A DNA stretch of 64,000 bases from NCBI GenBank assembly GCA_964016885.1, contig OZ024746.1, positions 13,082,001 to 13,146,000 on the forward strand. The letters are read 5' to 3'. Below are positions 218 through 55,769 of this stretch, piece after piece. A program made the translations under genes and the position numbers. The DNA is from Eledone cirrhosa (Eukaryota). Under the pieces are notes generated by a model, which was not told where the DNA came from, searched no databases, and saw only the letters and a list, made by a program, of their open reading frames with translations. Every line of letters begins with the position of its first letter. Position 1 is the first letter of the stretch.

Positions 218-1889
218 TATCCTCTGCTGCTTCTGCTAGAATCTGCTAGACGGAGCAGGTCATCAGCTTTTCTATTCATAGCTGGGCTTTCAAAATGTTT
301 ATTTATTAAACAAACCGTATATCTTTAGATATACAATATTCATATACTTGTATGTATACAGCTATGCTGAAGCTAAATTTTAATTATACAATTAATTATT
401 TCACTTGTATTCATTAGATTGCCTTTATTGTTCAATCTATCAAATATATTCCTTTCTTGTAGTATTCCTGGTGGATTTCATAGCAAATACTCATTAATTA
501 TTGTCTTTCCACTATGTGGCTTTTCATAATTGAAAGTATGTAGCTCTTGTATGTCTTTCCACTAGAAGAGAACTTTACTCTTTTGCCACTATTCAAAACA
601 ATAACAAGCTTACAAAGTAACATTAAATAAGGTGGAAGATTTGTAAATATTAATTTCAGCAGAGCTAGTTCGTTACTTAATTTTTAATAAAAATAAGGCA
701 TGAGTAATCTAACATCAATTTATGCTCTTTTCTACATATAACAATGTATTTTATGATTAATAATCTAAATGAAAACCACGTGGCGGAAATATAAATAACT
801 CGGCTGTCATAAATGGATTTGGTTGCGAGTTGTCCCTTCTATATATATCTATATATCCTACAGAAATTTGCACTCACTATAATAAACCCGCCTATTATTA
901 TAACAATATATGCTCATTCTGCCGTATGTGATTCTGGAAGCTGAGTTTCCTGTGTGCACTTTTATCTGTGTGTGACTGGATTGCCATCACAATTTGTATT
1001 TGCTGTGGTACAGTTCTATGCGGTGCGACACATTGGCTGAACGCCAACCTGGACATACAGTGAATTTCACCTGGCACGTTGGATTAAGTGACCGAATGTT
1101 TTCCATTTCCTCACATCTGTGCCGGCTGTATATGTGCCATACATTTCTTTAACTCGTCGTACCTTCTTTTATTTTTTGTTGTAGATTTTAGGTGTATATC
1201 CCAGACCGCCTATGGTGATAAATCCCCTGGCTATAGGTTTTGGAAAAATAGTGTTATCTCACTTGGAGTTCGGAACTGGACATATCGATGTGGTTCATGG
1301 GGTGCGGATATGATAAGGAGAATCGACCTATTACAGGGCGATATACTTGGAGTACACCATCCCTCATGTGGACTATCATACATGTAAGGCTGCATTACTG
1401 CTAACCAACAATTCTTTTCACAGACTCATGCTTGCAAACACTCTTGATCTGCCTGTACACCCCCTTTTGCACTGCTTGTGCTTTGATGCTTTGCTTTGTC
1501 TTATATATTTTTTTTTGGGGGGGGGGTGCTGGCTTTTTGTTCATTAATTGTTTTGTATTTTTGTATTTATCTCTTTTCTTATCCCTGTATTTTTGTACTT
1601 TTTTATTATTTTTTTGTTATTTTCTTGTATTTTCTGATTGTTTCTGATCATGCTGAGTAATACCCTCACTCACCCCTTGCTACCCTCTCCCAACCTCTTT
1701 ATCATCTATTGCACCATATAAGTGATAAATTTATGGTGTAATTTTTAATTTTTTATTTTTAAGACATTTTATGACATTATGTGCATCATGTATTATGTCT
1801 TTTTCTATATAGTGCTAGCCTCAGGTCATTTAACCTTGTTCTGGAGACGCAGCTCGATGGAACATGCAACTACTGATATACTCATGTTT

Positions 1890-1941
1890 ATAGGCTCTGA
1901 AGATTCCTGCCATGGTGTATGGATGAAACACTGTTAGCTAT
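1890..1941 (+). ncRNA. Minimal type I hammerhead motif, degenerate
   Basis: ATAGGCT-CTGAAGA-TTCC..GGAT-GAAA-CACTG-TT-AGCTAT. Stem I is GGCT/AGCT and stem II is TCC/GGA. It lies near the end of a ~1.2-kb GC-richer block (856-2045) bounded by TA-rich tracts. Confidence 0.5.
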
Positions 1942-2097
1942 GTATTTCTAAGCACTCTTTGGTTATTCCTATAACTATAACGGCTCTGTAGTATACTAGT
2001 TATCCTACATTGAGCTAAAACCACACTGTCATACCAAGGGCAATATATCTACATGTATAGGCATATTGATATATTTGTCAATGAAATATATATATAT

Positions 2098-3995: not shown

Positions 3996-5063
3996 CATGC
4001 ATGGTATATGTGTATATATATATTTATATATATAGTAGTCTAGCATCCACTACAATAAGGCACCATCACTTAATCAACTTCTCCTATCATACAAAAATGA
4101 CAAAGAAATTTTATTTAAAAGAAAATTTTTATTACACCCTTTCATCTGTACATACACTGCTCTACTGCCAGACCCCCAGGCCCTCTAACTTTTTCTCCCT
4201 CTAAATATATGTATACATCTTCAACACAACACAACAGATCAGTTTGAAAATAGCACCAAATGCGAGAATCTTCCCCAGAGAGTTAACAAGGACTTACCAG
4301 AACTAATATTAATGACTTATTGTAAAGATTTGAATTATTAAAGAACATCAACCACCAGTGAAGTCATTCTGCCTCTTTTTTAAAACAAATTATGTCCCTG
4401 CCAAAATATGTTCAAGGAAGGTGGACAATTAGTGACTATTTGCTTGCATTATCTACCATCTTTTTCTTTTCATCTGGGAGAGATAAGTTCTATCTGCCTT
4501 CAAATATGTGGCAGCTATAGAAGAATTTCCCACTTCTGAATGGTGCTGGATAAGTCTTAGCAAGACTCCTATTAGAATGCCTCATATCAACAGATGAATC
4601 TGTATGCCATGAGGCACACAAGGAACTTCATCATGAACATAGAATAGTGGATATGGTTTTTGTCATCTGTAAGTAGTTGATAGCTTTTGTTACCTAGGTG
4701 ACCTAATTAGTAGTGAATGTGAGTTTTCTGAAAGACTACTAGCCTCTGAATTTAGTTAATCGCTTTTCCTCATCTATTTGTTGTCAAGGTGACAAATTGT
4801 TTCTCAACATTTAGTTTTTGTTTTGTCTGAGGAATTGACGAGACATCTTGGAAATTCCAGAATAACAGAACAGCAGGCTACTTGGTTAGCCTAAACAAAA
4901 TAAACTACTACAATTGACTACAGGTTGGTTAACTAGCCAAATGTCAGGGGTAAAATTGTTACATAGATAAGCATGTTAATTCTCCAAGAAAATCAAAACA
5001 CAGAGTTCACCAAACATTAGTCGACAATAGTGATTAATACAAGCTGAGAGAACGAGCAATAGA

Positions 5064-5930
5064 GTCATCATCATCATTATCACCATTTAATGTCCATTTT
5101 TCCAAACTAGCATAGGTTAGATGGATTGTCCTGTTTGAGGCAAGTCGGGTCAGATGACCATGTCTTGCTTCAAACAGAACAGGTTTTGGCTTGATTTCTA
5201 TGGCTTGCATGCCCTTCCTAAAACCAACCACATTTACAGTGTGGCCTGGGCACTTTTTGTTATGACACTTACATAACCACTTTACAGTGTGGGCTGGGTG
5301 CTTTTTGTCGTGACACCAACACAACCACTTTACAGTGTGGGCTGCGTGCTTTTTGTCGTGACACCAACACGACCACTTTACAGTGTGGCCTGGGCGCTTT
5401 TTGTTATAACACTTACATAACCACTTTACAGTGTGGCCTGGGCGCTTTTTGTCGTGACACCAACACGACCACTTTACAGTGTGGACTGGGTGCTTTTTGT
5501 CGTGACACCAACACGACCACTTTACAGTGTGGACTGGGTGCTTTTTGTCGTGACACCAACACGACCACTTTACAGTGTGGGCTGGGTGCTTTTTGTCGTG
5601 ACACCAACACAACCACCTTACAGTGTGGCCTGGGCGCTTTTTGTTATGACACTTACATAACCACTTTACAGTGTGGGCTGGGTGCTTTTTGTTGTGACAC
5701 CAACACGACCACTTTACAGTGTGGACTGGTCGCTTTTTGTTGTGACACCTACAAGACCACTTTACACTGTGGGCTGGGTGCTTTTTGTTATAAAACCTAC
5801 ACGACCACTTTACAGTGTGGGCTGGGCTCTTTTTGTCATGACACCTACAAGACCACTTTACAGTGTGAACGGGTCGCTTTTGGTTGTGACACCAACACGA
5901 CCACTTTACAGTGTAGACTGGGTGCTTAAT
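5064..5930 (-). mobile_element. RTE 3' end with expanded 48-bp 3'UTR minisatellite (~14 units)
   Basis: (CAT)n tail and RTE terminal motif, then tandem CCACTTTACAGTGTGGACTGGGTGCTTTTTGTCGTGACACCAACACGA-type units. Confidence 0.85.
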
Positions 5931-6591
5931 ACACTGCAACAAATATATTAGATGCTATACATATTAAACATACACAAATGACACATAAAGGGTGTTATAT
6001 CAATGAAATGATATTAAATATAGAATAATTGATAACGTTATCAAAAGCTCTGGAAAACAGGACAAGTGCATTACACCAAACTATAAATAAACAATAATAA
6101 TAAACAAGAAAAACACTAAGGTCAAAAAACTTTTCATTAACAAATTAATAATAACTAATGGGATTTATAAATTTGAATGCAAATGTGAAAGTTGTAAACA
6201 TCATGACTCTAACTGACATACTGTCCATACAACAGTCTTCTTCAGGCTCACAACTTACAATCACTCAGTGCAATGTGTTGTACCATACAACACAAGACTA
6301 TAGCAGAAAACATTAATGGACAGTACATCCATATCTCTAGAATTATCCAGAAAAATAGACAATTAATGATGAAAGTAATACTCATAGCATAACTATAAAA
6401 AAACAATAAGACATGCCAACATTGCTTCATCTTAAAGATGAGAAGATGAAGGTTAAAAAATAATGATAGGTTTAGTAACTTTAATGATGATACAAATATC
6501 TTGATAAAAAAATAGATAAAAGTGCAACACACTCATGTATCCCACATAACATATATGTGTGTGTGTATATATATATATATATTCATATATA

Positions 6592-7839
6592 TCATCATCA
6601 TCATTACTGTTTAACGTCCATTTTCCACTCTAGCATGGGTTAGACAGATTGTCCTATTTGAGGCAAGTCCAGGTCAGATGACCATGTCTTCCTCATACAG
6701 AACTAATTTTGACTTGGTTTCTAGAGCTGGATGCCCTTCCAAATGCCAACTACATTTACAGTGAGTATTGGGGGGGGGGGGGGGGTTGTGACACCTACAC
6801 GAGCACCTTACAGTGTGTGCTGAGTGCTTTTTGTTGTGACACCTACACGACCACCTTACAGTGTGTGCTGGGTGCTTTTTGTTGTGACACCTACACGACT
6901 ACCTTACAGTGTGTGCTGGGTGCTTTTTGTTGTGACATCTACACGACTACCTTACAGTGTGTGCTGGGTGCTTTTTGTTGTGATACCTACACGACTACCT
7001 TACAGTGTGTGCTGGGTGCTTTTTGTTGTGACACCTACACGACTACCTTACAGTGTGTGCTGGGTGCTTTTTGTTGTGACACCTACACGACTACCTTACA
7101 GTGTGTGCTGGGTGCTTTTTGTTGTGACATCTACACGACTACCTTACAGTGTGTGCTGTGTGCTTTTTGTTGTGACACCTACACGACTACCTTACAGTGT
7201 GTGCTGGGTGCTTTTTGTTGTGACACCTACACGACTACCTTACAGTGTGTGCTGGGTGCTTTTTGTTGTGACATCTACACGACTACCTTACAGTGTGTGC
7301 TGGGTGCTTTTTGTTGTGATACCTACACGACTACCTTACAGTGTGTGCTGGGTGCTTTTTGTTGTGACACCTACACGACTACCTTACAGTGTGTGCTGGG
7401 TGCTTTTTGTTGTGACACCTACACGACTACCTTACAGTGTGTGCTGGGTGCTTTTTGTTGTGACACCTACACGACTACCTTACAGTGTGTGCTGAGTGCT
7501 TTTTGTTGTGACACCTACACGACTACCTTACAGTGTGTGCTGAGTGCTTTTTGTTGTGACATCTACACGACTACCTTACAGTGTGTGCTGGGTGCTTTTT
7601 GTTGTGATACCTACCCGACCACTTTGCAGTGTGGACTGGGGGCTTGAGTGGGAGAGGTGCATGGGGATTGGTGAGGTAGATCTAATGGGGGCATGGATGG
7701 AGGGTGGGGTGTTAGGGTATGTGAGGTGTACGGAAGGGTAAGAGGGAGGTAACGGAAAGTAGTGCATACTAGATGTATGCTTCAACCTGTGCACATGGGA
7801 AGGCGAGTCTTCTGTATTACTGAATAATGCCAGAGATCT
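6592..7839 (-). mobile_element. RTE 3' end with homogeneous 48-bp minisatellite (6785-7640, ~17-18 units) and ORF C-terminus remnant
   Basis: (CAT)n tail. Unit is GTTGTGACACCTACACGACTACCTTACAGTGTGTGCTGGGTGCTTTTT. The minus strand of 7780-7839 reads RDLWHYSVIQKTRLPMCT, resembling the ORF end RDFWRHAVIQGSRPPMGT. Confidence 0.85.
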
Positions 7840-7913: not shown

Positions 7914-7930
7914 TATATATATATATATTT

Positions 7931-7962
<32 letters not shown>

Positions 7963-8109
7963 ATATATATATTATTTATATATATATATATATATATATA
8001 TTTTATATATATATATATATATATTTTATATTTATATATATATATATATATATATTTTATATTTATATATATATATATTTTATATTTATATATATATATA
8101 TTTTATATT

Positions 8110-8144
<35 letters not shown>

Positions 8145-8146
8145 AT
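7914..8146. repeat. (TA)n microsatellite with TTT interruptions
   Basis: Direct observation. Confidence 0.95.
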
Positions 8147-8990
8147 AAAGTATGTCCATAGAATCATTTGATAATATATATACACCATTTCCTCTCCCAA
8201 TTAGCATAATCAACCACACAAAAAAACAATTAAACCAGGCTATAAGATTAAAAGGCACCTATGAAGAAATAGTGGATAAATAAACGACAGCCATCTATTC
8301 GCGGTCAACCGCTATAGAATATTTACCCAACATTTCAATAGCACGTGGGAATCGATTAAATATACCGTCAACCATACACAATTAGGTATAAAATTAAAGT
8401 TAGAAGAAAAAGTGCATATACACATACCAGGATTACGTTTCTACCCTTAGGGTTTCGTTCGCTTTCGGAAATATCCTATCAAGGATAAATTCTCGACCTT
8501 CGAACTCGTCAGGAAACAAACTCACTTGGACAAAGAATTTTCCTAAATGATCCCCGCCAGAAACGAAGCTTGAGAATTTATCCTTGATAGGATATTTCCG
8601 AAAGCGAACGAAACCCTAAGGGTAGAAATGTAATCCTGGTATGTGTATATGCACTTTTTCTTCTAACTTTAATTTTATACCTAATTGTGTATGGTTGACG
8701 ATATATTTAATCGATTTCCACGTGCTATTGAAATGTTGGGTAAATATTCTATAGCGGTTGACCGCGAATAGATGGCTGTCGTTTATTTATCCACTATTTC
8801 TTCATAGGTGCCTTTTAATCTTATAGCCTGGTTTAATTGTTTTTTTGTGTGGTTGATTATGCTAATTGGGAGAGGAAATGGTGTATATATATTATCAAAT
8901 GATTCTATGGACATACTTTATAGTATATTGCTCTGATTATTTAATTTATTAATTCATCATTGAGCCACATCGTGAATGGTTGCCAAAACA
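8144..8990. mobile_element. Fold-back element: ~360-bp inverted arms, ~60-bp spacer and one-sided ~68-bp extension, in (TA)n. Penelope-like pLTR architecture.
   Basis: 8144-8502 is the reverse complement of 8564-8922 with about 5 mismatches seen. The extension 8923-8990 is followed by TATATA. Contains a hammerhead. Confidence 0.85.
8437..8517 (-). ncRNA. Type I hammerhead ribozyme, intact core
   Basis: Minus strand reads GTTTC-CTGACGA-GTTCG-(long loop)-CGAAC-GAAA-CCCTAAGGG-TA-GAAAC. Stems I and II are perfect 5-bp helices, stem III is CCC/GGG, and the cleavage triplet is GUA. Confidence 0.85.
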
Positions 8991-9033
8991 TATATATCTG
9001 TGACTTTGTCTAGTTTGTGTATATGTAAATCTT

Positions 9034-9072
<39 letters not shown>

Positions 9073-9074
<2 letters not shown>

Positions 9075-9212
9075 GCACATGGCTTAGTGGTTAGAGCATT
9101 GGGCTTGCAATCGAAAGGTTGTGTTCAATTATCAGACCAGGTGATGTGTTGTTTCCTTGAGCAAGACACTTTATTTCATATTACTCCAGTTTACTCAGCT
9201 GTAGAAATGAGA
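9073..9212 (+). mobile_element. tRNA-derived SINE with CORE-like central box
   Basis: A-box TGGCTTAGTGG, B-box-like GTTCAATT, then GTGTTGTTTCCTTGAGCAAGACACTTTA. Confidence 0.7.
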
Positions 9213-9218
9213 TGATAG

Positions 9219-9440
9219 GACTGCAAAGTGGTCGTGGAGGTGCCACGGTAAAAAAGCACCCAGCCCACACTGTAAAGTGGACATGTAGGCGCCGCGGAAA
9301 AAAAAGCACCCAGTACTCACTGTAAATGAGGTTGGTGTTAGGAAGGGCATCCAGCTGTAGAAATCAAGCCAGAATCAGTTCCCGTCCCACCCTTGCAAGC
9401 AGGGAAAAGCGGACGTAAAATGATGATGATGATGATGATG
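9219..9440 (+). mobile_element. RTE LINE 3'UTR end
   Basis: Reverse complement of 29490-29760-like sequence, ending in GGACGTAAAA(TGA)n. Confidence 0.85.
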
Positions 9441-9538
9441 TGTGTGTGTGTGTGTCTTGGATTCATTCGGGGGTAACCACAGTAAGTAAGGTACTCAATA
9501 CATTAGTAGAGTGTAAACATCATGTTTAATATAGAAAT

Positions 9539-9590
9539 GGCATCTACAGGAGTAGAACTGTTTCATTCAAAAGAAATCATCAGGAAAGCC
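9539..9590 (-). ncRNA. Type I hammerhead motif (left-arm copy, GUA site)
   Basis: Minus strand reads GGCTTTC-CTGATGA-TTTCTTTTGAAT-GAAA-CAG(ttctactc)CTG-TA-GATGCC. Confidence 0.7.
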
Positions 9591-9865
9591 GACTGTCCTT
9601 GTAAAACTGTTGTCTTTATATGTTTTCTGGTGGTTGGTGAAGGGTAGAGGTCATTGGCCAAGGATTTTAAAGAACAGGGATTCTTTGAAAAAGATATATA
9701 CACAATAATACAATGACACAGAAATCTGTGTCATTGTATTATTGTGTATATATCTAAAAATACTTTTTCAAAGAATCCCTGTTCTTTAAAATCCTTGGCC
9801 AATGACCTCTACCCTTCACCAACCACCAGAAAACATATAAAGACAACAGTTTTACAAGGACAGTC

Positions 9866-9917
9866 AGCTTTCCTGATGATTTCTTTTGAATGAAACAGTT
9901 CTAGTCCTGTGGAAGCC
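9866..9917 (+). ncRNA. Type I hammerhead motif (right-arm copy, GUG site, predicted non-cleaving)
   Basis: AGCTTTC-CTGATGA-TTTCTTTTGAAT-GAAA-CAG(ttctagtc)CTG-TG-GAAGCC. Confidence 0.65.
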
Positions 9918-10185
9918 ATTTTTATATTAAACATATATATATTTGTTATCTGGGGAAGACGGATGTTAAATGATGATGATTGTATACGGTAATGTTCTAG
10001 AGAGAATCCCGGTATTTGGGGGAGGTGTACAGAATGACAGCAGCACATTCACTCTTACAGTAACTCAAGTGTATGAGGCACGGAAGTTTTATGATGCAAT
10101 GTTATTAAATGAGAAGAGTGCCTGGGAGAGTTAGTGCCTATCCCATATAGACCGGATATTGTGCACAGATGCTGAGACAAATCAC

Positions 10186-10740
10186 TCATAACGTCCTGTA
10201 CCACATGAAACTACATTAGAAAGACAGTCTTGAAAAATATAAAATAGCACCTTATGGGTCTAAATCAGAATTCATCAATTAATCTTTAATTCTACAAAAT
10301 ACTTCAGTAATGCCGGTATAGTCACAGCCTCCGTCTCTCTTGCTCTCCCCATCTTTTATAAGTAAATGGGGGCCCACATGCTGTCTGCTCCATGGCCCCA
10401 GCGGAGGACAGAATAGAGAAGGTGTTTCCCCGGAAGATGGTGAGGGAGATAAGTTGGAAGAGCCATTCCAGCTCGCAAGGCTCACACATGCAGCTAGCCA
10501 ACTCCATGCCAATGGTGGTGAGTAGGGAGGACACCAAAAGTTTTCACTACTACGGGCTCGACCGCAAACTTGTCGCAGAGCAGCAATGACTGCATTACAT
10601 TAAAAATTAAAGTCTTTATTCTCATACTGTAAATGTTCACAATGATATAACCACTAGTAAAGATACTAAAATAAACATTTAAATTGACAGACCTGAGTTT
10701 CAGTATTTTTTACTAAACTATTACAGGAGTTAAGAGTTAA
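10186..10740. mobile_element. TTAA-flanked (piggyBac-type) MITE interrupted by a GC-rich insert
   Basis: Ends CTCATAACGTCCTGTA and TACAGGAGTTAAGAG-TTAA. Homologous to 28399-28609 and 32543-32700. Confidence 0.7.
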
Positions 10741-10789
10741 ACTACCCAGCAGAGTAGAGCAGAGGCTAGTCACTTGCATAGTTAATCAG

Positions 10790-11845
10790 GTAGTATATGA
10801 AGTTGTCACAACCAATGATTGGTGTAGCATCATCCTTGTGATCTGCTACAAGGGCAAATGTGTACTAGAGAGAAAAGCAGTGAGAGAAGGATCAAGTTGT
10901 GAAGGTCACAGTGTTAGCACAACTGATTAGAGACAGAATTAGTCTTGATGAAATGCAGTTTAGTTCTGTGCAAGGTAAAAACATTATGGATACCATCTTT
11001 TTATATCTATCATTCATTAATTAACCTAGAGAAAGCCTTTGACAGAGTCTTATGTGCTATAAGTTTGGTGGTTGCTAAGGAAGCTTATAATAGGTGAATG
11101 GCTTGTTATGGCCGTACAAGCTACGTAGTATGGCAACTAGCAACATGGGACTCAGCAGTTAGTACAGTGATGAATTTAGTATGTAGGTAGGAGTCCATCT
11201 GGGTTCAGTTCACAGCCCTCTTGTTTATTATAGTCCTCCAGGCTATAACAGATGAACGTTATACTGGTTGTGCATGGGAACTCCTGTATGTTGATGATCT
11301 AGACCTTTATAACAGAACTATTAGAACAATTAGAGAAGTTCCAGACAGAAGCAAAACCTGGAATTATCAGTCCTCAAAGTATTCCAAGCAAAGACTAAAG
11401 TTTTAGTAAGAAAGAGAATAAGACTGATACCGCCAAGGAAATGACCATGCTCAGTATGCAGGAAAGAAGTATATGGTGTACCCAGTATGTACAATGGACT
11501 CACAATTGGTGTAGTGTGATCGTAGGTAGGCTGACAGACAAGACAAACTCTCTAGTGTTGGTGCCATGATAAAATGTACCCAGTACACTGCAGTCTGTAA
11601 AGTAGCTGATGATTGGAGACAATGTAGAGTAGAGAACACTCTTTAGTTTTGTTGAAGACATGACCTTTCTAGTGTTATGCATCCAATATACACTGTAAAG
11701 TGGTTGGTGTTAGGAAGAGCATCAAACCAAGCCAAAATTGTAATGGATAAGCATGATGTGATTTCCTGGCCCGTCTATGTCGGTAACTTTAAATAAGAAC
11801 TCAATCAGAATATAACAATCCTGCCAACCATGCTAACATAGATAG
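10790..11845 (+). mobile_element. Decayed RTE LINE (RT remnant to 3' tail)
   Basis: Remnants AQLIRDRISLDEMQF, LEKAFDRV, LFIIVLQAITD and WELLYVDDL with stops and frameshifts. Ends in GGACGTAAAATGATGAT. Confidence 0.9.
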
Positions 11846-11899
11846 TGGACGTAAAATGATGATATATTATGAGCATGTACTAAACCTAACAACAAAGCC

Positions 11900-14019
11900 A
11901 AATACGCTATCTTTAAGATCGCTTGTTTTCGCCCCCTTCAATTTATAAATTATCTGCAAATGCAATAAGACTGGGTTGTTTTCATTCGGTACAAAGCTTC
12001 AAATTATGATTATTTGGGTGTGGTGACGTTCGTAATTTTTAGGACTGAAGTTAACAGGGAATCGAAATTAGCTTGATATGAATATAAATGTAATATTGAT
12101 TTGAATAGTCATTAAATGAACCTTTGAAAGGGGGAAAGGAACAGTAGATTAATTAACAGATTATATTACTGGTATTATGTTTATTGATACTGGAATGGAA
12201 GGTAAAGGGATTAGACAGGTGTAAGAAAAACGACATAGCGAAGATGTCGGCTATATTTATAAGGTCAGAAGAAATTATGCGAGCGATATTCATACCTTTC
12301 CTGAGAGTATTAATGAACTGAAATGATTACAACAAAACCTAGTAGGAGATAGATTATGCGCAATTTATGTGAAGGGTGGCTGGGATATTGTTCATCTACA
12401 CCTTTCCCACGAAAATTAGCAATAAATGTGAAATGGCTACAACCACAAATTGTTTATTTCTTGGAACAAGGCCAATTTCACAGGAGGGCCCCACAGTCGA
12501 TACTGAAACTTATAAATCTTTGTGGGATTTGAGCGCAGAATAATGAGTTACCACACAGAAAACAGTAAAGTATCCTGTCATATTCTACTCTGTTCGTAGA
12601 GGTAGTCTATCAAAAATTTAACGAAGCTTCATTAACTTATCCCACCTAAAACGATAAGGTGTCCTCCAAAAATGTATACACACTTTTATTACCTGTACAG
12701 GCAATATTTATTAGAATGCTGTTGAAGTATGTATACATTTTTGGGGGTACACTCTGTATGTACAGTTGTTATGGTTTACAACTAGTTGTTTCAAAAGAAA
12801 CAGTTGTTAAAATACACTTATTTGTTATACTCTTTCAGAGGTTAGATGAAATACTGGATGGCTTATAACGTAAATTATTAAAATAATGAGTTGGCGCCAA
12901 GCACGGTGTTCGAAATTATCAAATTCAATGTTTAAACGTTTTTTTTTTTTAAGTTTCTTGCTATAAATTTTCTTTGATATTATTTTATTATTTACTGTAA
13001 TAATTTTTGAGGAAATAAATTAGCTCGACATTTATCTGATAACTTCGAATGTGATGCTTTATGTCAACTAAATAACCAACTAACCTTTGCGAAATTCAAT
13101 ATTTTATTAAACAAAATTGAAGAAATCTTAATTTCTTAAAAGCTTTTTTATCTACGCGAATAAAAACTATGGGTAGGAATTCCAAAACTGAAAATAAACA
13201 ATATCAGTGATTGATATTTGGATTGGTTAAAAGTGACGGTGCATTATTAATACAATGACACTTTCATTAGTAAATTGTCTTAAGCTGTATAATTTAATTA
13301 CAGACATTATCATTTAATCATTATACATTATGAGATTAATTTAATTTTTTTTTCCAACGAACACCATCGAAAAATTTAGGCTTTACCAGAATGGTCTTGC
13401 GGATAATTTTACGTCTACCAGTTTCTCTCTCTATTTCTCCCTCACAGGTAGAACGAAGTTCTTCACGTAGAAGTTAATAGGATCATTTTTAATTAAATGA
13501 TCAGAAGGTAATGTAATTAATCCCGTCATCTTTATGAAAAATAGCAATTGATGATTTAAATTACATCTATAGTTGTGAAGATTTAAAAAGCATACTCAGA
13601 TAGTATGTGGTCGATGTTATTATGTAAAATGTCAGTTTTTCTCACTTCCGGCATTGACGTTAGACGAAGGAGGAAGGTGAAAATAAAGAGAGTGAGACGG
13701 AGACTCCTATTAGAAACAACACTGAAAAGGGAAAGAAATATGTTGACGAATTTATTAATAAATATTACTACAATTTGTTTAGAAAAAATAAATATCTAGA
13801 GAATTATTTAGAAATAGAAAATTAAATATACCTTACTTGCAAACCTTGTTTTATATATATATAAAGAATAATATAATTGGTAATTTATTTTGGTTTACAT
13901 AATTTTTTAAAAATTTTAGTAAATGTTTTAAGTTTTTACTCTGAGTTTATAAATAAAGATTTCTAAAATCTATGAACATAACGTTTTTCTCTTTTTTTTT
14001 TTACGTGTAACACACACAC

Positions 14020-14052
<33 letters not shown>

Positions 14053-17000
14053 CATATATATATATGTGTGTGTGTGTATTGTTGAAGTTTGAAAGCTGCC
14101 CGAGAAATAATAGGTGAACTTAGCTTCATTAATCGGGGTATATGTATCATGGAAAGAGAAAAAATGAGGACATTTTGTTAGTGAGGTCAAGTGAATTATT
14201 GCCTATTATGAATATATTTATACTTTCCTGTATTTGTTACCACAGCTAAAATTAGTAGTTTTATTTTCCTTCTCTTAGTCAATATACTGAGAAACATTTT
14301 AAAATGCCGCCCATAACAATGGAAAACACGCAATTTTAGTTAGTTGTATTCTATTTAATTAGTAATTGGAAATATTTAAATTTTAACTATTAGAATTTAT
14401 TAGACATATTACTTTTTGGATTGGGATTTTTAAACATTGGTAATACAATGTCGATCATGATTCTCTTTGAAAATCGACTTGCCAAATGCGTAGGCAATTT
14501 AGTCAGTTGTAAAGTCTCCTAAAATGTAGACAAAATAATTTATATATATATATATATTTTAATGAAACAAATGGAGATAGATAAATATTTAGAATTGGGT
14601 AAAATATAAGACAAATGACAAAATATTTAAAACATGCAGTTTGTTGTTTAAGTCAGTTTATTTAATAAAATAGAAAATTATCTGATGACATGCAACATAG
14701 ATTAAGAAATATAAACAGTCAATGCGAGAGCTTCGTTGACAATTTAGTGGAATCGGGGGGGGGGAAATAAGTGTTTTGAGGTAGTATATGAAGATCTTTT
14801 CAGCAGTTTTTAATTATCTGCAGATCGTTTTACAAACACTAAGCATTACATCTCCCATTGACTCTTTCCTAAGCGGTATGCTAACATACTATTGTTGTAA
14901 TGGTAGTTTTTTTACTTATATTTATATATATATATATATTCCATAAAAAGTGATATTATTAAAGGAATTTTTTAGACGGTTTTATTTGTATTCTAAGTGT
15001 AAAGAGCATTTAATAATTTATTGAAGTAACTCATTCGTAAAATTACCTGAAAAAAAAGCAGGTATAAAGTATAATTCTATTAACTATTTAATCAAAATGG
15101 AGTAAAAAGAAATTACATCAAATACTTCGTGCATATATATTAATATTTGTGGGTGTGTGTATGTATATACACACACCATTTAGTGTATATGGCACATATT
15201 TAATAAGCTAGTTCTCTAATGTAGTTATTCTAAACAACACTCGTGAATACAGCATAATCGGGTCATTGGTAATGAAGTAAATAGTCGCGACTTGAAGAAA
15301 TTCTTTTAAAAATATTTCCTCAATAAATTCAGAAATTCTGTCGTTACAAATAATTGAAATATAAAATAAAAGTTCAATTAACTCAAATTTTAGAGTTAAT
15401 TTGTTTACAATAAATATTGACTGCTTGACAGTAGTAGCCACGATACTATAAGCGGCCATTGTGGTTTATTAACAGTGGATTTCTATATAAGACGTTTGAA
15501 ATCTTTATGAAACACTGGTATGCCATATTTGTGGGCTTTTTCTTTGCAATATTTGTATATGTATTAAAGTTACATCTTCGGTTTCAGTTTGCTTGCTTTG
15601 ATATATTTATTCAAATTTCTACATTAGCTTAGTGATCAGTTTTATCAGATAAATATTTGTCACGAATGATCCATGTGATATAATAAACTACTTTAATTAA
15701 CGAGCGAATTACCTTATTAAATATTCCGATGTAAATCTATTTAAGTTGTTAATCGAATTTTAGGAACATCAAAATACACTACAATCTTATATATAATGGT
15801 TGTTATAATATAATAACCAATTTAGGGTAACGTCGACTGATAAGATTATTTCATACTTCGAGTCTAATATGAACAGATTTTGCTCAAGATTTCTACGATG
15901 TGGTACTTATAGTATTATATACAGTTAATTCATTCAAACACATAACTGTAAATCATTTTTCTTCAAAAATATAACTTTTACTTAACAGTATACAAGACAA
16001 CCACTTTTTCAGCAATTGCTATCATAATCTACATTGTTTTAAATAAAAATTCATTATTTTAAACTAAAGCTTTTAAAATATATTTAATGCAGTTTATTTT
16101 TTAACAAGCTTGCTGAGGTTTTATTTTATGAAAAACCGATTATTGCATCTAGAGATCCCTTGTTTATAAAATATTCCCTCGTTATTTATTAATTTAATCT
16201 TGTCACGAAATATAGTTGCTTAATCCCATTTTATCAGTCGTGCCTGGATCATTTCCAATATATGTTTTTTTGCTATATGAATGCCGATGTTAAGATAATA
16301 TTCTCTGATTAACATTTACCAAAATCTAAATTCAAGTTCTATTAGTTCGCCATTCCAACATGGCTGCCATACCTGAGCTGATATTTTTGTCGTCTATATA
16401 TATCAGCAATTATTCTTTTTTCTCTAGACCAACAACATCTATAGTATAAATTTTATATAAATTAAAGTTGCTTATTTGCCCGCTATCCATTAGACTTTTT
16501 TTTATTACTTTAAATTGATCGAGATATTTTGAAAAATATAGTTATTCAATGTATTTAAGACAAGAAGATGTGGTTGTGTGTGTTATTTTGACAGAGTTCT
16601 TAAATGATTTGTGTGCATGCATCGTGTAGTAAATGTTGTTTTGTTTGCCATTTGGTAATATAACTTGCCCTGTAGCTTAGTTATTCGAGAAATGCTAACT
16701 AAATGATTTTATTTAAAGAAATTTATTTATTTATGCATATAAAATTCATCTTTAAAAGTCAATTTGGTATATTTTGTAATGTTTAATAATATATAAGAAA
16801 CACTTATATTGTGTGTGTTTTTCCTTTGCTAAAATAAGATCTACTTTATATTTACAAATTTCTGAGGGGGGGGGGGGTTCTAATTTTATTTACTTTTGCT
16901 TAATTGCTTGATATAAAAATAGCTTCCAAATTAAAGGTGCAACACATTTGCTTGTTTATTTTGCTATTGAATTGAATTAGATAAATCTACATGTTAGAAA

Positions 17001-29484: not shown

Positions 29485-31218
29485 AATCATCATCATCATC
29501 ATCATCACCGTTTTACGTCCGTTCTTCCACGCTAGCATGGGTTAGACGGGTTGTCCTGTTGTCAGCAGTGTCTGGTCGGCTGACCATGCCTTGCTCATAC
29601 AGGAACTGATCTGGCTTGATTTCTACAGCTGGATGCCCTTCCTAACACCAACCTCATTTACAGTGAGTGCTGGGTGCTTTTTCGTGGCGCCTACACGTCC
29701 ACTTTACAGTGTGGGCTGGGTGCTTTTTTGCCGTGGCACCTCCACGACCACCTTGCGGTGGGGGGGGGGGGGGCATATTGTTTATATGCTTCAGCATGTA
29801 CCCATGGGAGGTCGGGAACCCTGTATTACTGCGTGACGCCAGAAGTCACGGTCGTGTGTCATTGACTTTGAGAGGTGTAGTTGGGTAAGGTCGGCTTTTA
29901 TCACCTCATCCCAAGTCATCTTGGGTCTCCCCACTCCGCGGTTTCCATCAACTTCTAGTGCTCTGCACCTTTTTATGCAGCTGTCATCCTTCATACGCAT
30001 CACATGTCCATACCAGCGTAACCGCCTCTCCTGCACGCAGCATTTGATTCCTCTTATGCTCAGTCTCTCTCTCAATTCCTTTATGCTTTGTCGTTCACGT
30101 ATATTACTGTTACACATCCATCGGAGCATGCAGGCTTCGTTTCTCTCTAATCTACGTAAGTCTTCCACCTTCAGCGCCCAGGTCTCACTACCTTGCAACA
30201 TCGCTGTTCGGATACACGCATCATACAGTCTGCCTTTCATTCTGAGGGAGAAGCCTTTTGCAGCTAGCAGTGGTAGTAGTTCCCTAAACTTCTTCCATCC
30301 CGTTCTTACCCTAGTTATTGTACTTTCTGAGCACCCACCTCCGTTGCTAATTCGGTCACCTAGGTAGCAGAAGCTGTCTACTGTTTCTACAGGGCCCTCC
30401 CAGAGATTGGTGGTACTTGTTTCCTGTGGCTGTCTGCTTGCTGTTTCAGCACAGCTGCTGCATGTGAATCCTACATTCTTAATTAAGCTTCCTGAGATCC
30501 CGCTACATCTCTTGTGTACCCATTGTTTGCCTTTGGGGCAGAGAATGGAGTTCCTACCTACACCTTTCCTACATACTGAGCAAGGCCATTTCCCTGAGGG
30601 GATCTGGGTTCTGTTTTCTCGTCTACTTATAAGGACCTTAGTCTTTGTCATGTTGACTTTGAGGCCCTTTCTCTCTAGTCCCTGCTTCCAGGTTTGGAAT
30701 TTATTCTCTAGTTCTACCATAGATTCAGCTATGAGTGCGAGGTCATCAGCATACAGGAGTTCCCATGGGCATCCGGTCTTAAACTCCTCCGTTATTGCCT
30801 GCAGGACTATGATGAACAGGAGAGGGCTAAGAACAGAGCCCTGGTGGACCCCAACCTGTACGCTAAATTCCTCGCTATACTCATTGCCAATCCTAACTTT
30901 GCTGACTGCTCCCCTATACATGGCTTGTACCGCTTTCACAAGCCATTCATCTACTCCTAGTTTTCTAAGAGCCCACCAGATTACTGCACGTGGAACTCTG
31001 TCAAAGGCTTTCTCAAGGTCGACAAATGCCAAGTAGAGTGGCTTACTTTTAGCTAGGTACTTTTCCTGTAATTGCCTCACAAGGAAGAGGGCATCAGTGG
31101 TGCCTTTCCCTGGTACAAACCCAAATTGCATCTCGTCTATATTCACCCGGTCCCTAATCAGCTGTGCTATAACTCTTTCTGTTACTTTCATGACCTGGTC
31201 CATCAACTTTATATCTCT
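29485..31218 (-). mobile_element. Young 5'-truncated RTE-clade LINE
   Basis: Uninterrupted RT ORF, 3'UTR with 48-bp-like units, near-palindromic terminal CCATGCTAGCGTGG and an (ATG)n tail. Possible GTAAAT TSD. Confidence 0.95.
29791..31206 (-). CDS. RTE reverse transcriptase (endonuclease lost by 5' truncation) with PHD-like Cys/His finger
   Basis: QFGF, FVDLEKAFD, GVHQGSVLSPLLF, YADD, FCYLG, GSETW, RLRWYGHVMR and GRPKMTW motifs. CxxC..CxxG..HxxC..CxxC insert after RT. Confidence 0.9.
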   Translation of the reverse strand: MMDQVMKVTERVIAQLIRDRVNIDEMQFGFVPGKGTTDALFLVRQLQEKYLAKSKPLYLAFVDLEKAFDRVPRAVIWWALRKLGVDEWLVKAVQAMYRGAVSKVRIGNEYSEEFSVQVGVHQGSVLSPLLFIIVLQAITEEFKTGCPWELLYADDLALIAESMVELENKFQTWKQGLERKGLKVNMTKTKVLISRRENRTQIPSGKWPCSVCRKGVGRNSILCPKGKQWVHKRCSGISGSLIKNVGFTCSSCAETASRQPQETSTTNLWEGPVETVDSFCYLGDRISNGGGCSESTITRVRTGWKKFRELLPLLAAKGFSLRMKGRLYDACIRTAMLQGSETWALKVEDLRRLERNEACMLRWMCNSNIRERQSIKELRERLSIRGIKCCVQERRLRWYGHVMRMKDDSCIKRCRALEVDGNRGVGRPKMTWDEVIKADLTQLHLSKSMTHDRDFWRHAVIQGSRPPMGTC

Positions 31219-31373
31219 CAGAGTAAATTAGATCTTCACAATTGGCATATTAATTGTGTGGCATTTTGGACCAGCATGCTTTTTACCATAGCCTCAAGTC
31301 AATTCAAGTCTATGAAACAAAATTATTTATAAGTAAGCTATTCATTAATTAACGTGCATATTCTTTTTCCTGC

Positions 31374-47074: not shown

Positions 47075-47293
47075 ACGAAGGAATTGTGGTAAGAAACCAG
47101 ATGGACTGTAATGCACCAGAGTACTCAATACTTAGGGTAGTAGAGTGGGTAATAAGAAAAAGTATGACCCCCAACGGCAGAGTTCAAGCCGTTTCGACAG
47201 CTATTTCTAGACTAAAATCAGTCTAGACTAAAATTAGTCAAGAAATAACCGTTGAAACGGCTTGAGCTCTGCCGTCAGGGTCATACTTTTTCC
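47075..47293 (-). mobile_element. Short fold-back element (hairpin 47156-47292 plus extension) in (TA)n, with a hammerhead 3' half
   Basis: Inverted arms of ~65 bp. GAAA-CGGC..GCCG-TC at 47254-47276. Extension motif GTACTCAATAC..TAGTAGAGTG is shared with 9491-9512. Confidence 0.7.
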
Positions 47294-47304
47294 TATATAT
47301 ATAT

Positions 47305-47421
47305 AAGGAAGGAAGGTGGACCATAACCCACCAAAGTACTATGGGTAGTAGAGGGGGTAATAGCAAAAGAGTCAGGACCCCAATGGCCGGAGCTTAGCCA
47401 TCGGGGTCCTGGCTCTTTTCC
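47305..47421 (-). mobile_element. Shorter relative of the preceding fold-back element (hairpin 47365-47419)
   Basis: AAAAGAGTCAGGACCCCAATGGC / GCCATCGGGGTCCTGGCTCTTTT. Shares GGGTAGTAGAG.GGGTAATA and the TTTTCC-TATATA end. Confidence 0.7.
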
Positions 47422-48238
47422 TATATATATATATATACTATGGATAGATTTGGCTAGTATATAGAACTGTAAACTATTTAGTAATGAATTACTTCTGACC
47501 TCAGTGAAGGAAGCTGATTTTTTAAAATACAGATTTTTTTATGATACATGCTTGTCTCAAATGATATATCATGTATGAAGAAAATGATTGTTCATTTTAT
47601 TTTAATGTTTCAAAGTTTTCCAATTGTTATTATACAAGTCAACAATTTTTCACAAACCATAAGGAGTTCTCTTTAGCCTCAAACATATAAATGTTGATAT
47701 TGATAAGATATGGTTCTATCATATTTAATGTTACCCAGAAAGTCTGGGTAAATTGAAACAGATAGAATTACATATATTGCCTAGTGACACAACAAAACAC
47801 TTACTATGAGATATAAATTACTGACTTGCGCACAGCAGATACATTAATATATTATTTCTTGGCTATATATTCTCATCTATTCAAATGTGTCATTCATTAA
47901 TAGAGATAACGTGAATACATTTTAATGGAGTGCATTAGTTTATGTCAATCTTTCTCCGCCCCCTCTTTCTTTCTCTCCATCTCTCTCTCCCTCTATATTC
48001 ACTTTTTTCCTACTTCTCACATTTATTCATTCATATCTGTTTTAAGTAATAAATCAATTTATTGTGTAACCAGCATGTAGCAATTGTCTTCCTACATTTT
48101 CTCTGTACTTAACTCTAGTTTATATAGAACTGTCATTTGATGGAATGAATAAATATTAAGTAAAGATAATATAGGAAAAATTATATCTGGAATGATGGCA
48201 TTAAGAATATCTTTAACAGAAGAAATAAGGATGAGTGA

Positions 48239-49169: not shown

Positions 49170-49616
49170 TTAACGGTCTGGGATTTTAAATAGTGTTATT
49201 TCAACTCTTTCATCTTGACGTTGGTAGAGTATTTCACCTTCAAACTTTAAAAGCTTGTGCCGGCGAGCCCGTATTAACATACCAACGAGTTTATTAGAAA
49301 TACGTAAGTAAGCCTGAAATAATTCACCAAATGTCACTACGACAGTTTTATCAGGTTGTGTTATTCCAATCTCAGCTATTATCATACAAAGTTCCTGGAT
49401 TTCATTGTAAACTGATTGCAACGCTTTTTGGCCACGAATTGCTGACAGTGTACCTTCAACTGGTCTTCCATAGTTTTCATCTGTTTTTGACAACGTTTGC
49501 CGATGAGAGGCACCATCCCATAATGAAAATGGATTAATTAATTGTTGTTCTTTGTGCTCATCTACACGTGTCTGCCAATTAGAGATTTCTGAGACCAAAT
49601 TTTTAGAAACAGGCAT
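49170..49616 (-). CDS. ABRA: Actin-binding Rho-activating protein (STARS) homologue, C-terminal Costars domain; last or only coding exon
   Basis: WQ..DEH..QQLINPFS, YGRPVEGT, VTFGELFQAYLRISNKLVGMLIRARRHKLLKFEGEILYQRQDERVEITL are ABRA/Costars hallmarks. Splice acceptor TTCCTCAACAG lies immediately before 49617. Confidence 0.92.
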   Translation of the reverse strand: MPVSKNLVSEISNWQTRVDEHKEQQLINPFSLWDGASHRQTLSKTDENYGRPVEGTLSAIRGQKALQSVYNEIQELCMIIAEIGITQPDKTVVVTFGELFQAYLRISNKLVGMLIRARRHKLLKFEGEILYQRQDERVEITLFKIPDR

Positions 49617-49849
49617 TCTGTTGAGGAATTTAAAAAACTATTATTAGAGAGAAAGTTAAAGGTAAATTGATTTACTCAGAATGAAATTAATAAAATGAAT
49701 CTCAATAATATAATATTTAATTACAAAACACATACAAAAGAACATACACATACACACACTACTAAGAATACATACATATAGACATACACATAGGTACACC
49801 AAAAACAATTTAACTCATTTACATATCACCTGATACAAAGACGCTGTTC

Positions 49850-51817: not shown

Positions 51818-52954
51818 CTATATATGTGTGTGTGTGTGTCTATATATATGTGTGTGTGTGTGTGTATATATATATATGTGTGTGTGTGTATATATATATA
51901 TATGTGTGTGTCTATATATATGTGTGTGTGTGTCTATATATATATGTGTGTGTGTGTGTGTCATATATATATATGTGTGTGTGTGTGTGTCTATATATAT
52001 GTGTGTGTGTGTCTATATATATATGTGTGTGTGTGTGTCTATATATATATATGTGTGTGTGTCATCATCATCATCATCATCACCGTTTTACGTCCGTTCT
52101 TCCACGCTAGCATGGGTTAGACGGGTTGTCCTGTTGTGGGCAGTGTCTGGTCGGCTGACCATGCCTTGCTCATACAGGAACTGATCTGGCTTGATTTCTA
52201 CAGCTGGATGCCCTTCCTAACACCAACCTCATTTACAGTGAGTGCTGGGTGCTTTTTCGTGGCGCCTACACGTCCACTTTACAGTGTGGGCTGGGTGCTT
52301 TTTTGCCGTGGCACCTCCACGACCACCTTGCGGTGGGGGGAGTGGGGGCATATTGTTTATATGCTTCAGCTTGTACCCATGGGAGGTCGGGTACTCTGTA
52401 TTACTGCGTGACGCCAGAATTCACGGTCGTGTGTCATTGCCTTTGAGAGGTGTAATTGGGTAAGGTCGGCTTTTATCACCTCATCCCAGGTCATCTTGGG
52501 TCTCCCCACTCCGCGGTTTCCATCAACTTCTAGTGCTCTGCACCTTTTTATGCAGCTGTCATCCTTCATACGCATCACATGTCCATACCAGCGTAACCGC
52601 CTCTCCTGCACGCAGCATTTGATTCCTCTTATGCTCAGTCTCTCTCTCAATTCATTTATGCTTTGTCGTTCACGTATATTACTGTTACACATCCATCGGA
52701 GCATGCAGGCTTCGTTTCTCTCTAATCTAGGTAAGTCTTCCACCTTCAGCGCCCAGGTCTCACTACCATGCAACATCGCTGTTCGGATACACGCATCATA
52801 CAGTCTGCCTTTCATTCTGAGGGAGAAGCCTTTTGCAGCTAGCAGTGGTAGTAGTTCCCTAAACTTCTTCCATCCCGTTCTTACCCTAGTTATTGTACTT
52901 TCTGAGCACCCACCTCCGTTGCTAATTCGGTCACCTAGTGTGTCTATATATATA

Positions 52955-53005
<51 letters not shown>

Positions 53006-53082
53006 CTATATATATGTGTGTGTGTGTGTGTCTATATATATATGTGTGTGTGTGTGTCTATATATATATATGTGTGTGTGTG

Positions 53083-55650: not shown

Positions 55651-55769
55651 TGATTACAGCACCCACATTTCCATAGTGGTCACCCATCCAAGTAGTAACT
55701 AGACTTGACATTGATTAACTTCAGTGATCGGACCAGAACTAATGTTGTCAGTGTGATATGGCTGTAAAC
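55651..55769 (-). pseudogene. 5S rRNA-derived pseudogene
   Basis: Minus strand GTTTACAGCCATATCAC..GTCCGATCACTGAAGTTAA..TACTTGGATGGGTGACC..GGTGCTGTA is colinear with 5S over 119 nt and followed by a T-run. Many substitutions and CpG loss. Confidence 0.85.

What the first reader, a model, noticed from the sequence alone, without database searches (positions are those of the whole stretch)
8144..8990. Young 850-bp fold-back element carrying an intact type I hammerhead ribozyme, inserted in (TA)n
Seen: ~360-bp arms with only ~5 mismatches, a ~60-bp spacer, a ~68-bp extension on one arm only, and TA tracts on both sides. The minus strand at 8437-8517 folds as a complete hammerhead (GUUUC/GAAAC stem I, CUGACGA, GUUCG/CGAAC stem II with a long loop, GAAA, CCC-UAA-GGG stem III, GUA site). 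The right arm has only the GAAA/stem III half, so only one orientation could self-cleave. Known: Penelope-like elements carry type I hammerheads in their pLTRs and often have an inverted pLTR lacking the 3' extension. Inference: a recently mobilised, non-coding, ribozyme-bearing Penelope-dependent (retrozyme-like) element.
Basis: partly seen in the sequence, partly recalled or inferred. Interest (0 to 1): 0.85.

Follow-up and report, generated by a model that had tools for sequence, protein, structure and literature searches.

The report
Inverted Penelope retrotransposon end with hammerhead
This is a real fold-back in an octopus-like genome that carries a complete hammerhead ribozyme sequence; it is likely the truncated, back-to-back end of a known kind of jumping gene (a Penelope-like retrotransposon), and its one possibly new feature is a small shared hairpin that would mark where copying starts.

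Summary
The fold-back is real: 359-nt arms, 5 mismatches, 61-nt spacer, a complete type I hammerhead on the minus strand (the only strict hit in 64 kb; 0 of 100 shuffles). The right boundary is ~9033, not 8990. Public runs show a high-copy, diverged family, deepest at its 3' end, with copies ending into (TA)n at two sites, different inversion points, and sequence continuing 5' of this copy. So the fold-back is not the unit that moves. It is likely a 5'-truncated, head-to-head 3' end of a Penelope-like element (PLE), closest to the Hydra clade ((TA)n target, 3' hammerhead, U.U stem-II base; known from Octopus). That anatomy is in print. It fails the tandem test for a retrozyme; no link to an RT/GIY-YIG ORF was found, so autonomy is open. 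The ribozyme is predicted to be buried in the palindrome in situ. New lead: the tail opens with a bulged hairpin (NCTC-stem-loop-stem-TT-GAGY) found in 4 window elements (0.26 expected), one external copy and 3 of 6 Hydra consensus ends, with different paired stems; a candidate signal for the tail/RT start, not found in my literature searches.

The parts
7914..8143 (.). left (TA)n-rich tract, likely target site
   Evidence: sequence
8144..8567 (-). inverted 5'-truncated copy: upstream spacer, full hammerhead, 3' region, ending at the family's tail-less end directly in (TA)n
   Evidence: tail-less end followed by (AT)n in 43 contigs of X1 and 167 reads of X15
8437..8517 (-). type I hammerhead: stem I 5 bp (+U.G), CUGACGA 8512-8506, stem II 5 bp plus extended helix, GAAA, near-palindromic stem III, predicted cut after 8442 (GUA)
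   Evidence: no Rfam hit; cleavage untested
8503..8563 (-). spacer = sequence upstream of and including the 5' core of the hammerhead, present once; contains a competing partner for the stem I 3' strand
   Evidence: joined to the right-arm sequence in other copies
8564..8567 (.). 4-nt microhomology (CGAA) at the inversion junction
   Evidence: spacer-matching reads and contigs run to 8567 before diverging; same 4 letters open the right arm
8564..8922 (+). sense 5'-truncated copy starting inside stem II (GAAA/stem III half only)
8639..8807 (+). possible 169-nt intron (GTATGT donor; pyrimidine tract + CATAG acceptor); inferred only
   Evidence: motif scan; no spliced form among the joints
8923..9033 (+). 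one-sided 3' tail (~110 nt), with an internal alternative end near 8988-8997
8930..8965 (+). tail hairpin: 4-bp outer stem, 2-nt TT bulge, 4-bp inner stem; shared with other elements
9034..9074 (.). right (TA)n then (GA)n tract

Best explanation
The 8144-9033 fold-back is likely the 5'-truncated, head-to-head 3' end of a longer Penelope-like retrotransposon (most like the Hydra clade), written into a (TA)n tract by that element's RT/GIY-YIG enzyme, with the hammerhead likely carried along as an uncleaved passenger. Shown: two copies of one subfamily sequence in opposite orientation, one ending at the family's tail-less end and one at the tail end, joined at a 4-nt microhomology 55 nt upstream of the ribozyme core. 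Inferred: the enzyme nicked the (TA)n tract and reverse-transcribed an RNA not cut at the hammerhead (both arms cross the cut site), starting at two sites that flank a bulged hairpin; both cDNAs stopped early in the 3' UTR and were joined at CGAA (or one cDNA folded back there and one tail was trimmed on integration). The copy has no coding sequence because truncation fell in the 3' UTR. In place the ribozyme is predicted to be silent because the already-transcribed complementary arm sequesters it.
For: High-copy diverged family: 3,783 contigs in X1, 2,827 reads in X15 (68/456/1060/1243 at 99+/95-99/90-95/<90% alike), also 18 and 4 contigs in two other organisms; X1 depth ~10-fold higher at 8850-8885 than over the spacer, as from 5' truncation. 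Two 3' ends into (AT)n (8928; 8988) = PLE tail signature (described). Spacer(-) joins right arm(+) in X1, X5 and X15, so the intact hammerhead region exists in other copies; 5 further opposite-strand joints lie elsewhere; X5 and X8 continue upstream of the spacer. Published: opposite-strand hammerhead pairs 100-700 bp apart read as truncated PLEs; inverted 5'-truncated copy and one-sided tail; head-to-head junctions with overlap; two internal RT starts, both strands extended, uncleaved RNA the main template. Hydra PLEs: (TA)n preference in 26 of 27 listed families, 3' hammerhead, frequent U.U at the stem-II base, a family in Octopus bimaculoides, one Repbase entry with an inverted 5'-truncated copy; family relatives here show U.U (X5 contig 9, X8 contig 17). 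Host is an octopod. Same tail hairpin after the hammerhead in 3 of 6 Hydra consensus sequences (read by eye). Stem probabilities fall to 0 in a read-through transcript.
Against: No RT/GIY-YIG sequence was linked to the family: no genome held, no ORF in the listed loose ends (21 shown, 352 hidden), no homolog for the 42-aa frame, stem III motif absent from the Craig et al. supplement. The tail (~110 nt) and the hammerhead-to-hairpin distance (306 nt versus 33 and 47 in two neighbours) are longer than in described PLEs (30-40 nt tail). The hairpin is not Hydra-specific (similar forms in a Naiad and two Chlamys records), so the clade is a best guess; Neptune/Nematis were not compared. This copy's junction is not confirmed by independent reads. 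Rfam is negative.
Confidence: 0.65

Rival explanations
1. The family is a short non-autonomous, ribozyme-bearing element (retrozyme-like or SINE-like) moved in trans by a PLE enzyme; this copy is a truncated, inverted insertion of it.
For: No coding sequence in the copy; very high copy number; 306-nt insert between ribozyme and tail hairpin is atypical; non-autonomous PLE partners and pLTR-derived retrozymes are described.
Against: No tandem unit: spacer does not match downstream sequence (277 of 500 shuffles score as well), a monomer would exceed 525 nt against 170-400 nt described, 0 of 14 joints go back. The read-end pile at 8567 that could suggest a fixed 5' end coincides with a restriction-type site, as do the piles at 8674/8683/8835-8838, and X5/X8 continue upstream.
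Confidence: 0.23
2. The palindrome arose after insertion (fold-back repair) or in assembly.
For: No listed read or contig spans this copy's junction; inverted PLE ends are known to trouble assemblies.
Against: Arms differ at 5 sites, 3 of them CpG-type or private changes; the left arm stops at the same tail-less end that 43 contigs and 167 reads show before (AT)n; three more fold-backs with the same one-sided anatomy lie in the window.
Confidence: 0.07
3. A MITE or fold-back DNA transposon with long terminal inverted repeats inserted at TA, the hammerhead being captured or accidental.
For: Long near-perfect inverted arms and TA flanks.
Against: One-sided tail, 3'-biased depth, copy-specific inversion points, family sequence beyond the spacer; descriptor hit not expected by chance.
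Confidence: 0.03

Closest known systems
Hydra-clade Penelope-like elements (Craig et al. 2021, PMC8557442), e.g. Hydra-1_Obim, Hydra-2_Amil, Hydra-2_Ajap, Penelope-13_HM
   Same: (TA)n target, type I hammerhead near the 3' end with near-palindromic stem III, U.U stem-II base in relatives, inverted 5'-truncated copy, octopod host, bulged hairpin after the ribozyme in 3 of 6 new consensus sequences
   Different: No ORF linked; much longer stem II, ribozyme-to-end distance and tail; no sequence match to Hydra-1_Obim seen by eye or by the stem III motif search
Penelope/Poseidon pLTR with tail (PAc of Anolis, PMC11167929; Adineta Pen2a, PMC3846280)
   Same: Head-to-head inverted copy lacking the tail, overlap at the junction, two 3' ends, AT-rich target, both arms copied across the uncut ribozyme site
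   Different: Tail 30-40 nt and coding there; here ~110 nt with no open frame through it
Non-LTR retrozymes (PMC7229834; bioRxiv 10.64898/2026.07.22.740005)
   Same: Non-coding, type I hammerhead, low GC, many copies; U.U stem-II base is also described for axolotl HHR_Amex2
   Different: Retrozymes are head-to-tail repeats of 170-400 nt; this is head-to-head, 5'-truncated, with defined ends in (TA)n

Membership tests
Type I hammerhead ribozyme | Core CUGANGA / GAAA / UH with three stems, open stem I | tested here: met
Type I hammerhead ribozyme | Match to an Rfam hammerhead model | tested here: not met
   no hammerhead family at gathering score or E<=10
Type I hammerhead ribozyme | Core conserved and stems covarying across copies | tested here: inconclusive
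   N7 varies (U in 337 of 382 X15 reads), none of 9 listed variant positions in 85 hits the 12 invariant core letters, but chance is 0.24 and only 40 of 182 variant rows were shown; 10.1/11.1 changes to U.U, not a compensatory pair
Type I hammerhead ribozyme | Self-cleavage | not testable with these tools
   needs an assay
Penelope-like element (EN+) | RT plus GIY-YIG ORF in the parent element | tested here: inconclusive
   none in the copy; no genome to search; upstream seen for 17-30 nt only
Penelope-like element (EN+) | 5' truncation with inverted copy at the 5' end | tested here: met
Penelope-like element (EN+) | Optional tail at one end (two 3' ends) | tested here: met
   longer than the 30-40 nt described
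Penelope-like element (EN+) | Hammerhead in the terminal repeat, sense to the element | tested here: met
   ribozyme sense points to the deep, tailed end
Hydra clade | Protein signatures (RWK, DKT, CxCX5C, no CCHH) and phylogeny | not testable with these tools
   no protein linked; definition
Hydra clade | (TA)n target and canonical 3' hammerhead | tested here: met
Non-LTR retrozyme | Head-to-tail repeats, each with a hammerhead | tested here: not met
   (this copy and the 535-nt stretch laid; longer monomers not excluded)
Non-LTR retrozyme | Monomer 170-400 nt | tested here: not met
   unique family sequence exceeds 525 nt
Non-LTR retrozyme | Expressed as circular RNA | not testable with these tools
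   no RNA holder listed; no evidence either way

The most novel reading that the evidence does not exclude
The bulged hairpin at the start of the tail (NCTC-stem-loop-stem-2-nt bulge-GAGY) is a conserved cis-signal that the PLE enzyme binds to set the two reverse-transcription start sites, and so makes the tail and the lopsided inverted ends; it is shared by unrelated octopod families and Hydra elements of coral, sea cucumber and copepod, and perhaps by Naiad and Chlamys.
Probability: 0.35. Interest if true: 0.62.

Novelty: new member of a known kind. Interest (0 to 1): 0.38.

Why it matters
The fold-back itself is ordinary PLE debris, already drawn in published schematics. What could matter is the tail hairpin: how PLEs choose their internal RT start sites and form tails and inverted ends is stated as open in the papers read. 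A short, covarying motif gives a direct mutagenesis target in the existing in vitro system and a cheap descriptor for finding and orienting PLE ends that have lost both ORF and ribozyme.

Tried and rejected
No own genome is held, so no genome-wide BLAST. Rfam: no hammerhead at 8300-8700, 8425-8530, 9830-9940 or window-wide. No second copy of element 1 in the window. Metagenome pattern scan: 1 hit, L001, a 21-nt match with no flanking likeness, judged chance. Protein links all failed: 42-aa frame 8808-8933; six read-through frames of 841-1562 upstream of element 5 in Pfam, 0 of 6; one frame against the representatives, one weak hit that is a GPCR; frame 1185-1484. The idea that 8567 is a natural 5' end was dropped because the read-end piles of X15 fall on AATT sites. 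The U.U stem-II base looked new but is in print. Sequence likeness between elements 1 and 2, and between tails 1 and 5, is not significant or borderline (279 of 500, 41 of 300, 27 of 1000, 82 of 1000 shuffles). The relaxed hairpin count in the Craig supplement (5 of 25 listed places) is not above chance (background 10.5%, P 0.12), and the hairpins are mostly no more stable than shuffles (z -0.3 to -0.7, one -2.2). The supplement of PMC11167929 gave no text hits, so its stem-loop figures could not be compared. Earlier scan findings: none.

Full report
Observation. The inverted repeat is there: arms 8144-8502 and 8564-8922, 359 nt, 61 nt apart, with 5 mismatches. The minus strand 8517-8437 has every core letter of a type I hammerhead with 5-bp stems I and II and a 4-bp near-palindromic stem III; that is its minimum-energy fold. 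My strict descriptor finds only this site in 64 kb and none in 100 dinucleotide shuffles. Against it: Rfam reports no hammerhead family and the fold is not unusually stable (13 of 200 shuffles as good). The plus strand lacks the CUGANGA half. The window's host is an octopod: the 155-aa frame at 49170-49637 is 82% identical to an Octopus bimaculoides Costars protein and 69% to Argonauta, best 2 of 12 hits. No whole genome is held.

The family. I laid 4 of the 17 listed runs on 8490-9024 at 80% likeness. X1 gave 3,783 contigs and X15 2,827 reads, of which only 68 were 99% alike or more and 2,303 under 95%; two other organisms gave 18 and 4 contigs. Summed X1 depth is ~30,000 over the spacer, ~360,000 at 8850-8867 and still 8,000-16,000 at 8994-9024, against 7-19 for single listed contigs (not a copy number). 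Copies end into (AT)n at ~8928 (43 contigs, 167 reads) and at 8988 (1 contig of X5); the left arm stops at the first of these ends. Of 14 listed joints 12 change strand, 2 skip, none goes back. Three (8491-8576, 8494-8573, 8499-8575) join the spacer's minus strand to the right arm, i.e. the intact hammerhead region in other copies and species; five lie at other places, each on one contig or 8 reads, and look like other copies' inversion points. Spacer matches run to 8567, giving a 4-nt CGAA overlap at this copy's junction, and X5 (2 contigs) and X8 (1 contig) continue upstream. The read-end piles in X15 fall on AATT sites and are read as library cuts, not element ends. No listed record spans this copy's own junction.

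Ribozyme across copies. N7 is U in 337 of 382 X15 reads; position 10.1 is U in 210 of 376 and 11.1 U in 39 of 122, with U.U on single contigs of X5 and X8; loop III has one-letter indels (24 of 122 and 7 of 137 reads). None of the 9 listed variant positions hits an invariant core letter, but that has a chance of 0.24 and 142 of 182 variant rows were hidden, so selection on the core is not shown. Folding gives stem I probability 0.95 in 8530-8420, 0.05 once the upstream spacer is included (a competing helix, 5 kcal/mol better) and 0 for all stems in a read-through of the palindrome. Stem III can dimerise, as described for metazoan PLE hammerheads. Both arms cross the predicted cut site, so the template was likely uncut.

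Age. 5 of 359 is 1.4% (CI 0.45-3.2%). Three mismatches are private or CpG-type changes and one sits on a common family polymorphism (382 of 751 reads). With the calibration quoted in PMC13282606 (distance 0.09 = 25 My) this is roughly 2 My; inference, and arm-to-arm conversion would make it look younger.

Neighbours and the tail hairpin. The window holds three more fold-backs with a one-sided extension and the other arm ending in (TA)n: 9457-9934, with a decayed hammerhead in each arm, 47075-47296 and ~47305-47424. In elements 1, 2 and 3 the extension opens, 5-9 nt past the tail-less end, with the same hairpin: NCTC, a 3-4-bp inner stem, a loop, the stem's partner, a TT bulge, GAGY. A strict descriptor built on these three gives 4 hits in the window against 0.255 in shuffles (0 of 200 reach 3). 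The fourth, 1983-2015, was not in the training set and lies 86 nt after a minimal hammerhead core (1897; U.U stem-II base, palindromic stem III), a neighbourhood that 2.8% of strand positions have, and 104 nt before (TA)n, the same distance as in element 1. An X8 loose end shows the motif with an inner G-C swapped to C-G. The inner stems differ in sequence among all these and still pair. Element 4 keeps only the inner stem. The hairpins are weak and mostly not more stable than shuffles.

Comparison with what is known. PMC4209133 (parts 1-2 of 4) reports opposite-strand hammerhead pairs 100-700 bp apart as truncated PLEs. PMC8557442 (passages, section 11, supplement parts 2, 52, 53 and searches) describes the inverted 5'-truncated copy and one-sided tail, and the Hydra clade: (TA)n in 26 of 27 listed families, canonical 3' hammerheads, many with U at both 10.1 and 11.1, Hydra-1_Obim in Octopus, and Penelope-13_HM with an inverted copy. 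Read by eye, Hydra-2_Amil and Hydra-2_Ajap carry the tail hairpin perfectly (TT and TA bulge) about 45-55 nt after the ribozyme, Hydra-1_Crog with one mismatch, Hydra-1_Amil weakly, and two consensus sequences end before it: 3 clear of 6. Similar forms appear in one Naiad, two Chlamys and one unnamed record, but the relaxed count (5 of 25) is within chance, so that extension is only a lead. PMC11167929 (parts 1-2 of 4) shows two internal RT starts in a stem-loop, extension of both strands, AT-rich targets and uncleaved RNA as main template; its supplementary figures could not be read and may bear on whether the hairpin is already described. PMC3846280 (passages) describes head-to-head junctions with overlaps and palindromes. 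PMC7229834 (passages) and bioRxiv 10.64898/2026.07.22.740005 (part 1 of 5 and passages) define retrozymes as head-to-tail repeats, which this is not. PMC9977147, PMC6962438 and PMC13282606 were seen as passages. Searches listed no paper on such a conserved tail hairpin or on octopod PLE hammerheads beyond Hydra-1_Obim; the library lacks most subscription papers, including older Penelope reviews, so this is not proof of novelty.

Mechanism. Shown: geometry, two ends, microhomology, family continuing upstream. Inferred: a PLE enzyme nicked (TA)n and copied an uncut RNA from two start sites around the hairpin; both products stopped in the 3' UTR and were joined at CGAA, or one cDNA folded back there and a tail was trimmed (element 2's 4-nt-loop apex fits fold-back better). 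Not shown: the ORF, cleavage, expression. All attempts to tie these ends to a protein failed, so autonomy and clade stay open.

Verdict. Real feature, known kind: the truncated inverted end of a Penelope-like element, not a retrozyme and not a new fold-back element. Interest rests on the shared tail hairpin as a testable signal: overall 0.38; 0.62 if the hairpin proves to set the RT start (probability 0.35).

Noticed in passing
window 9457-9934: Second fold-back of a different family: 172-nt arms plus palindromic centre (4-nt loop, 9-nt indel), decayed hammerhead in both arms (right arm has GUG at the cut site), 65-nt extension with the tail hairpin on the left arm, right arm ending in (TA)n.
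   Followed up: partly
window 1886-2086 (+): Minimal type I hammerhead (CUGAAGA, U.U stem-II base, palindromic stem III) followed by the tail hairpin and, 104 nt on, (TA)n; not inverted; T-rich stretch upstream. Upstream 841-1562 looks like decayed coding sequence but matched nothing.
   Followed up: partly
window 47075-47296 and ~47305-47424: Two short related fold-backs in a row between (TA)n tracts, one-sided extensions, tail hairpin in the first; no hammerhead seen.
   Followed up: partly
window 8558-8565 (-): Upstream sequence complementary to the stem I 3' strand is predicted to outcompete the active fold; could keep the template uncut. Conservation not checked.
   Followed up: partly
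window 49170-49637 (-): Single-frame Costars/ABRA (actin-binding Rho-activating) protein, closest to Octopus bimaculoides (82%).
   Followed up: yes
window 29791-31227 and 52366-53031 (-): RT-bearing LINE fragments (RTE-like by recalled resemblance), two related copies.
   Followed up: no
window 55651-55769 (-): 5S rRNA-like sequence (Rfam 69.5 bits), likely a pseudogene or 5S-derived SINE head.
   Followed up: no
window ~5030-5950 and ~6680-7640: 48-nt minisatellite arrays (period 48 shown for 7000-7635) inside a repeat whose relatives recur at 9250-9330.
   Followed up: no
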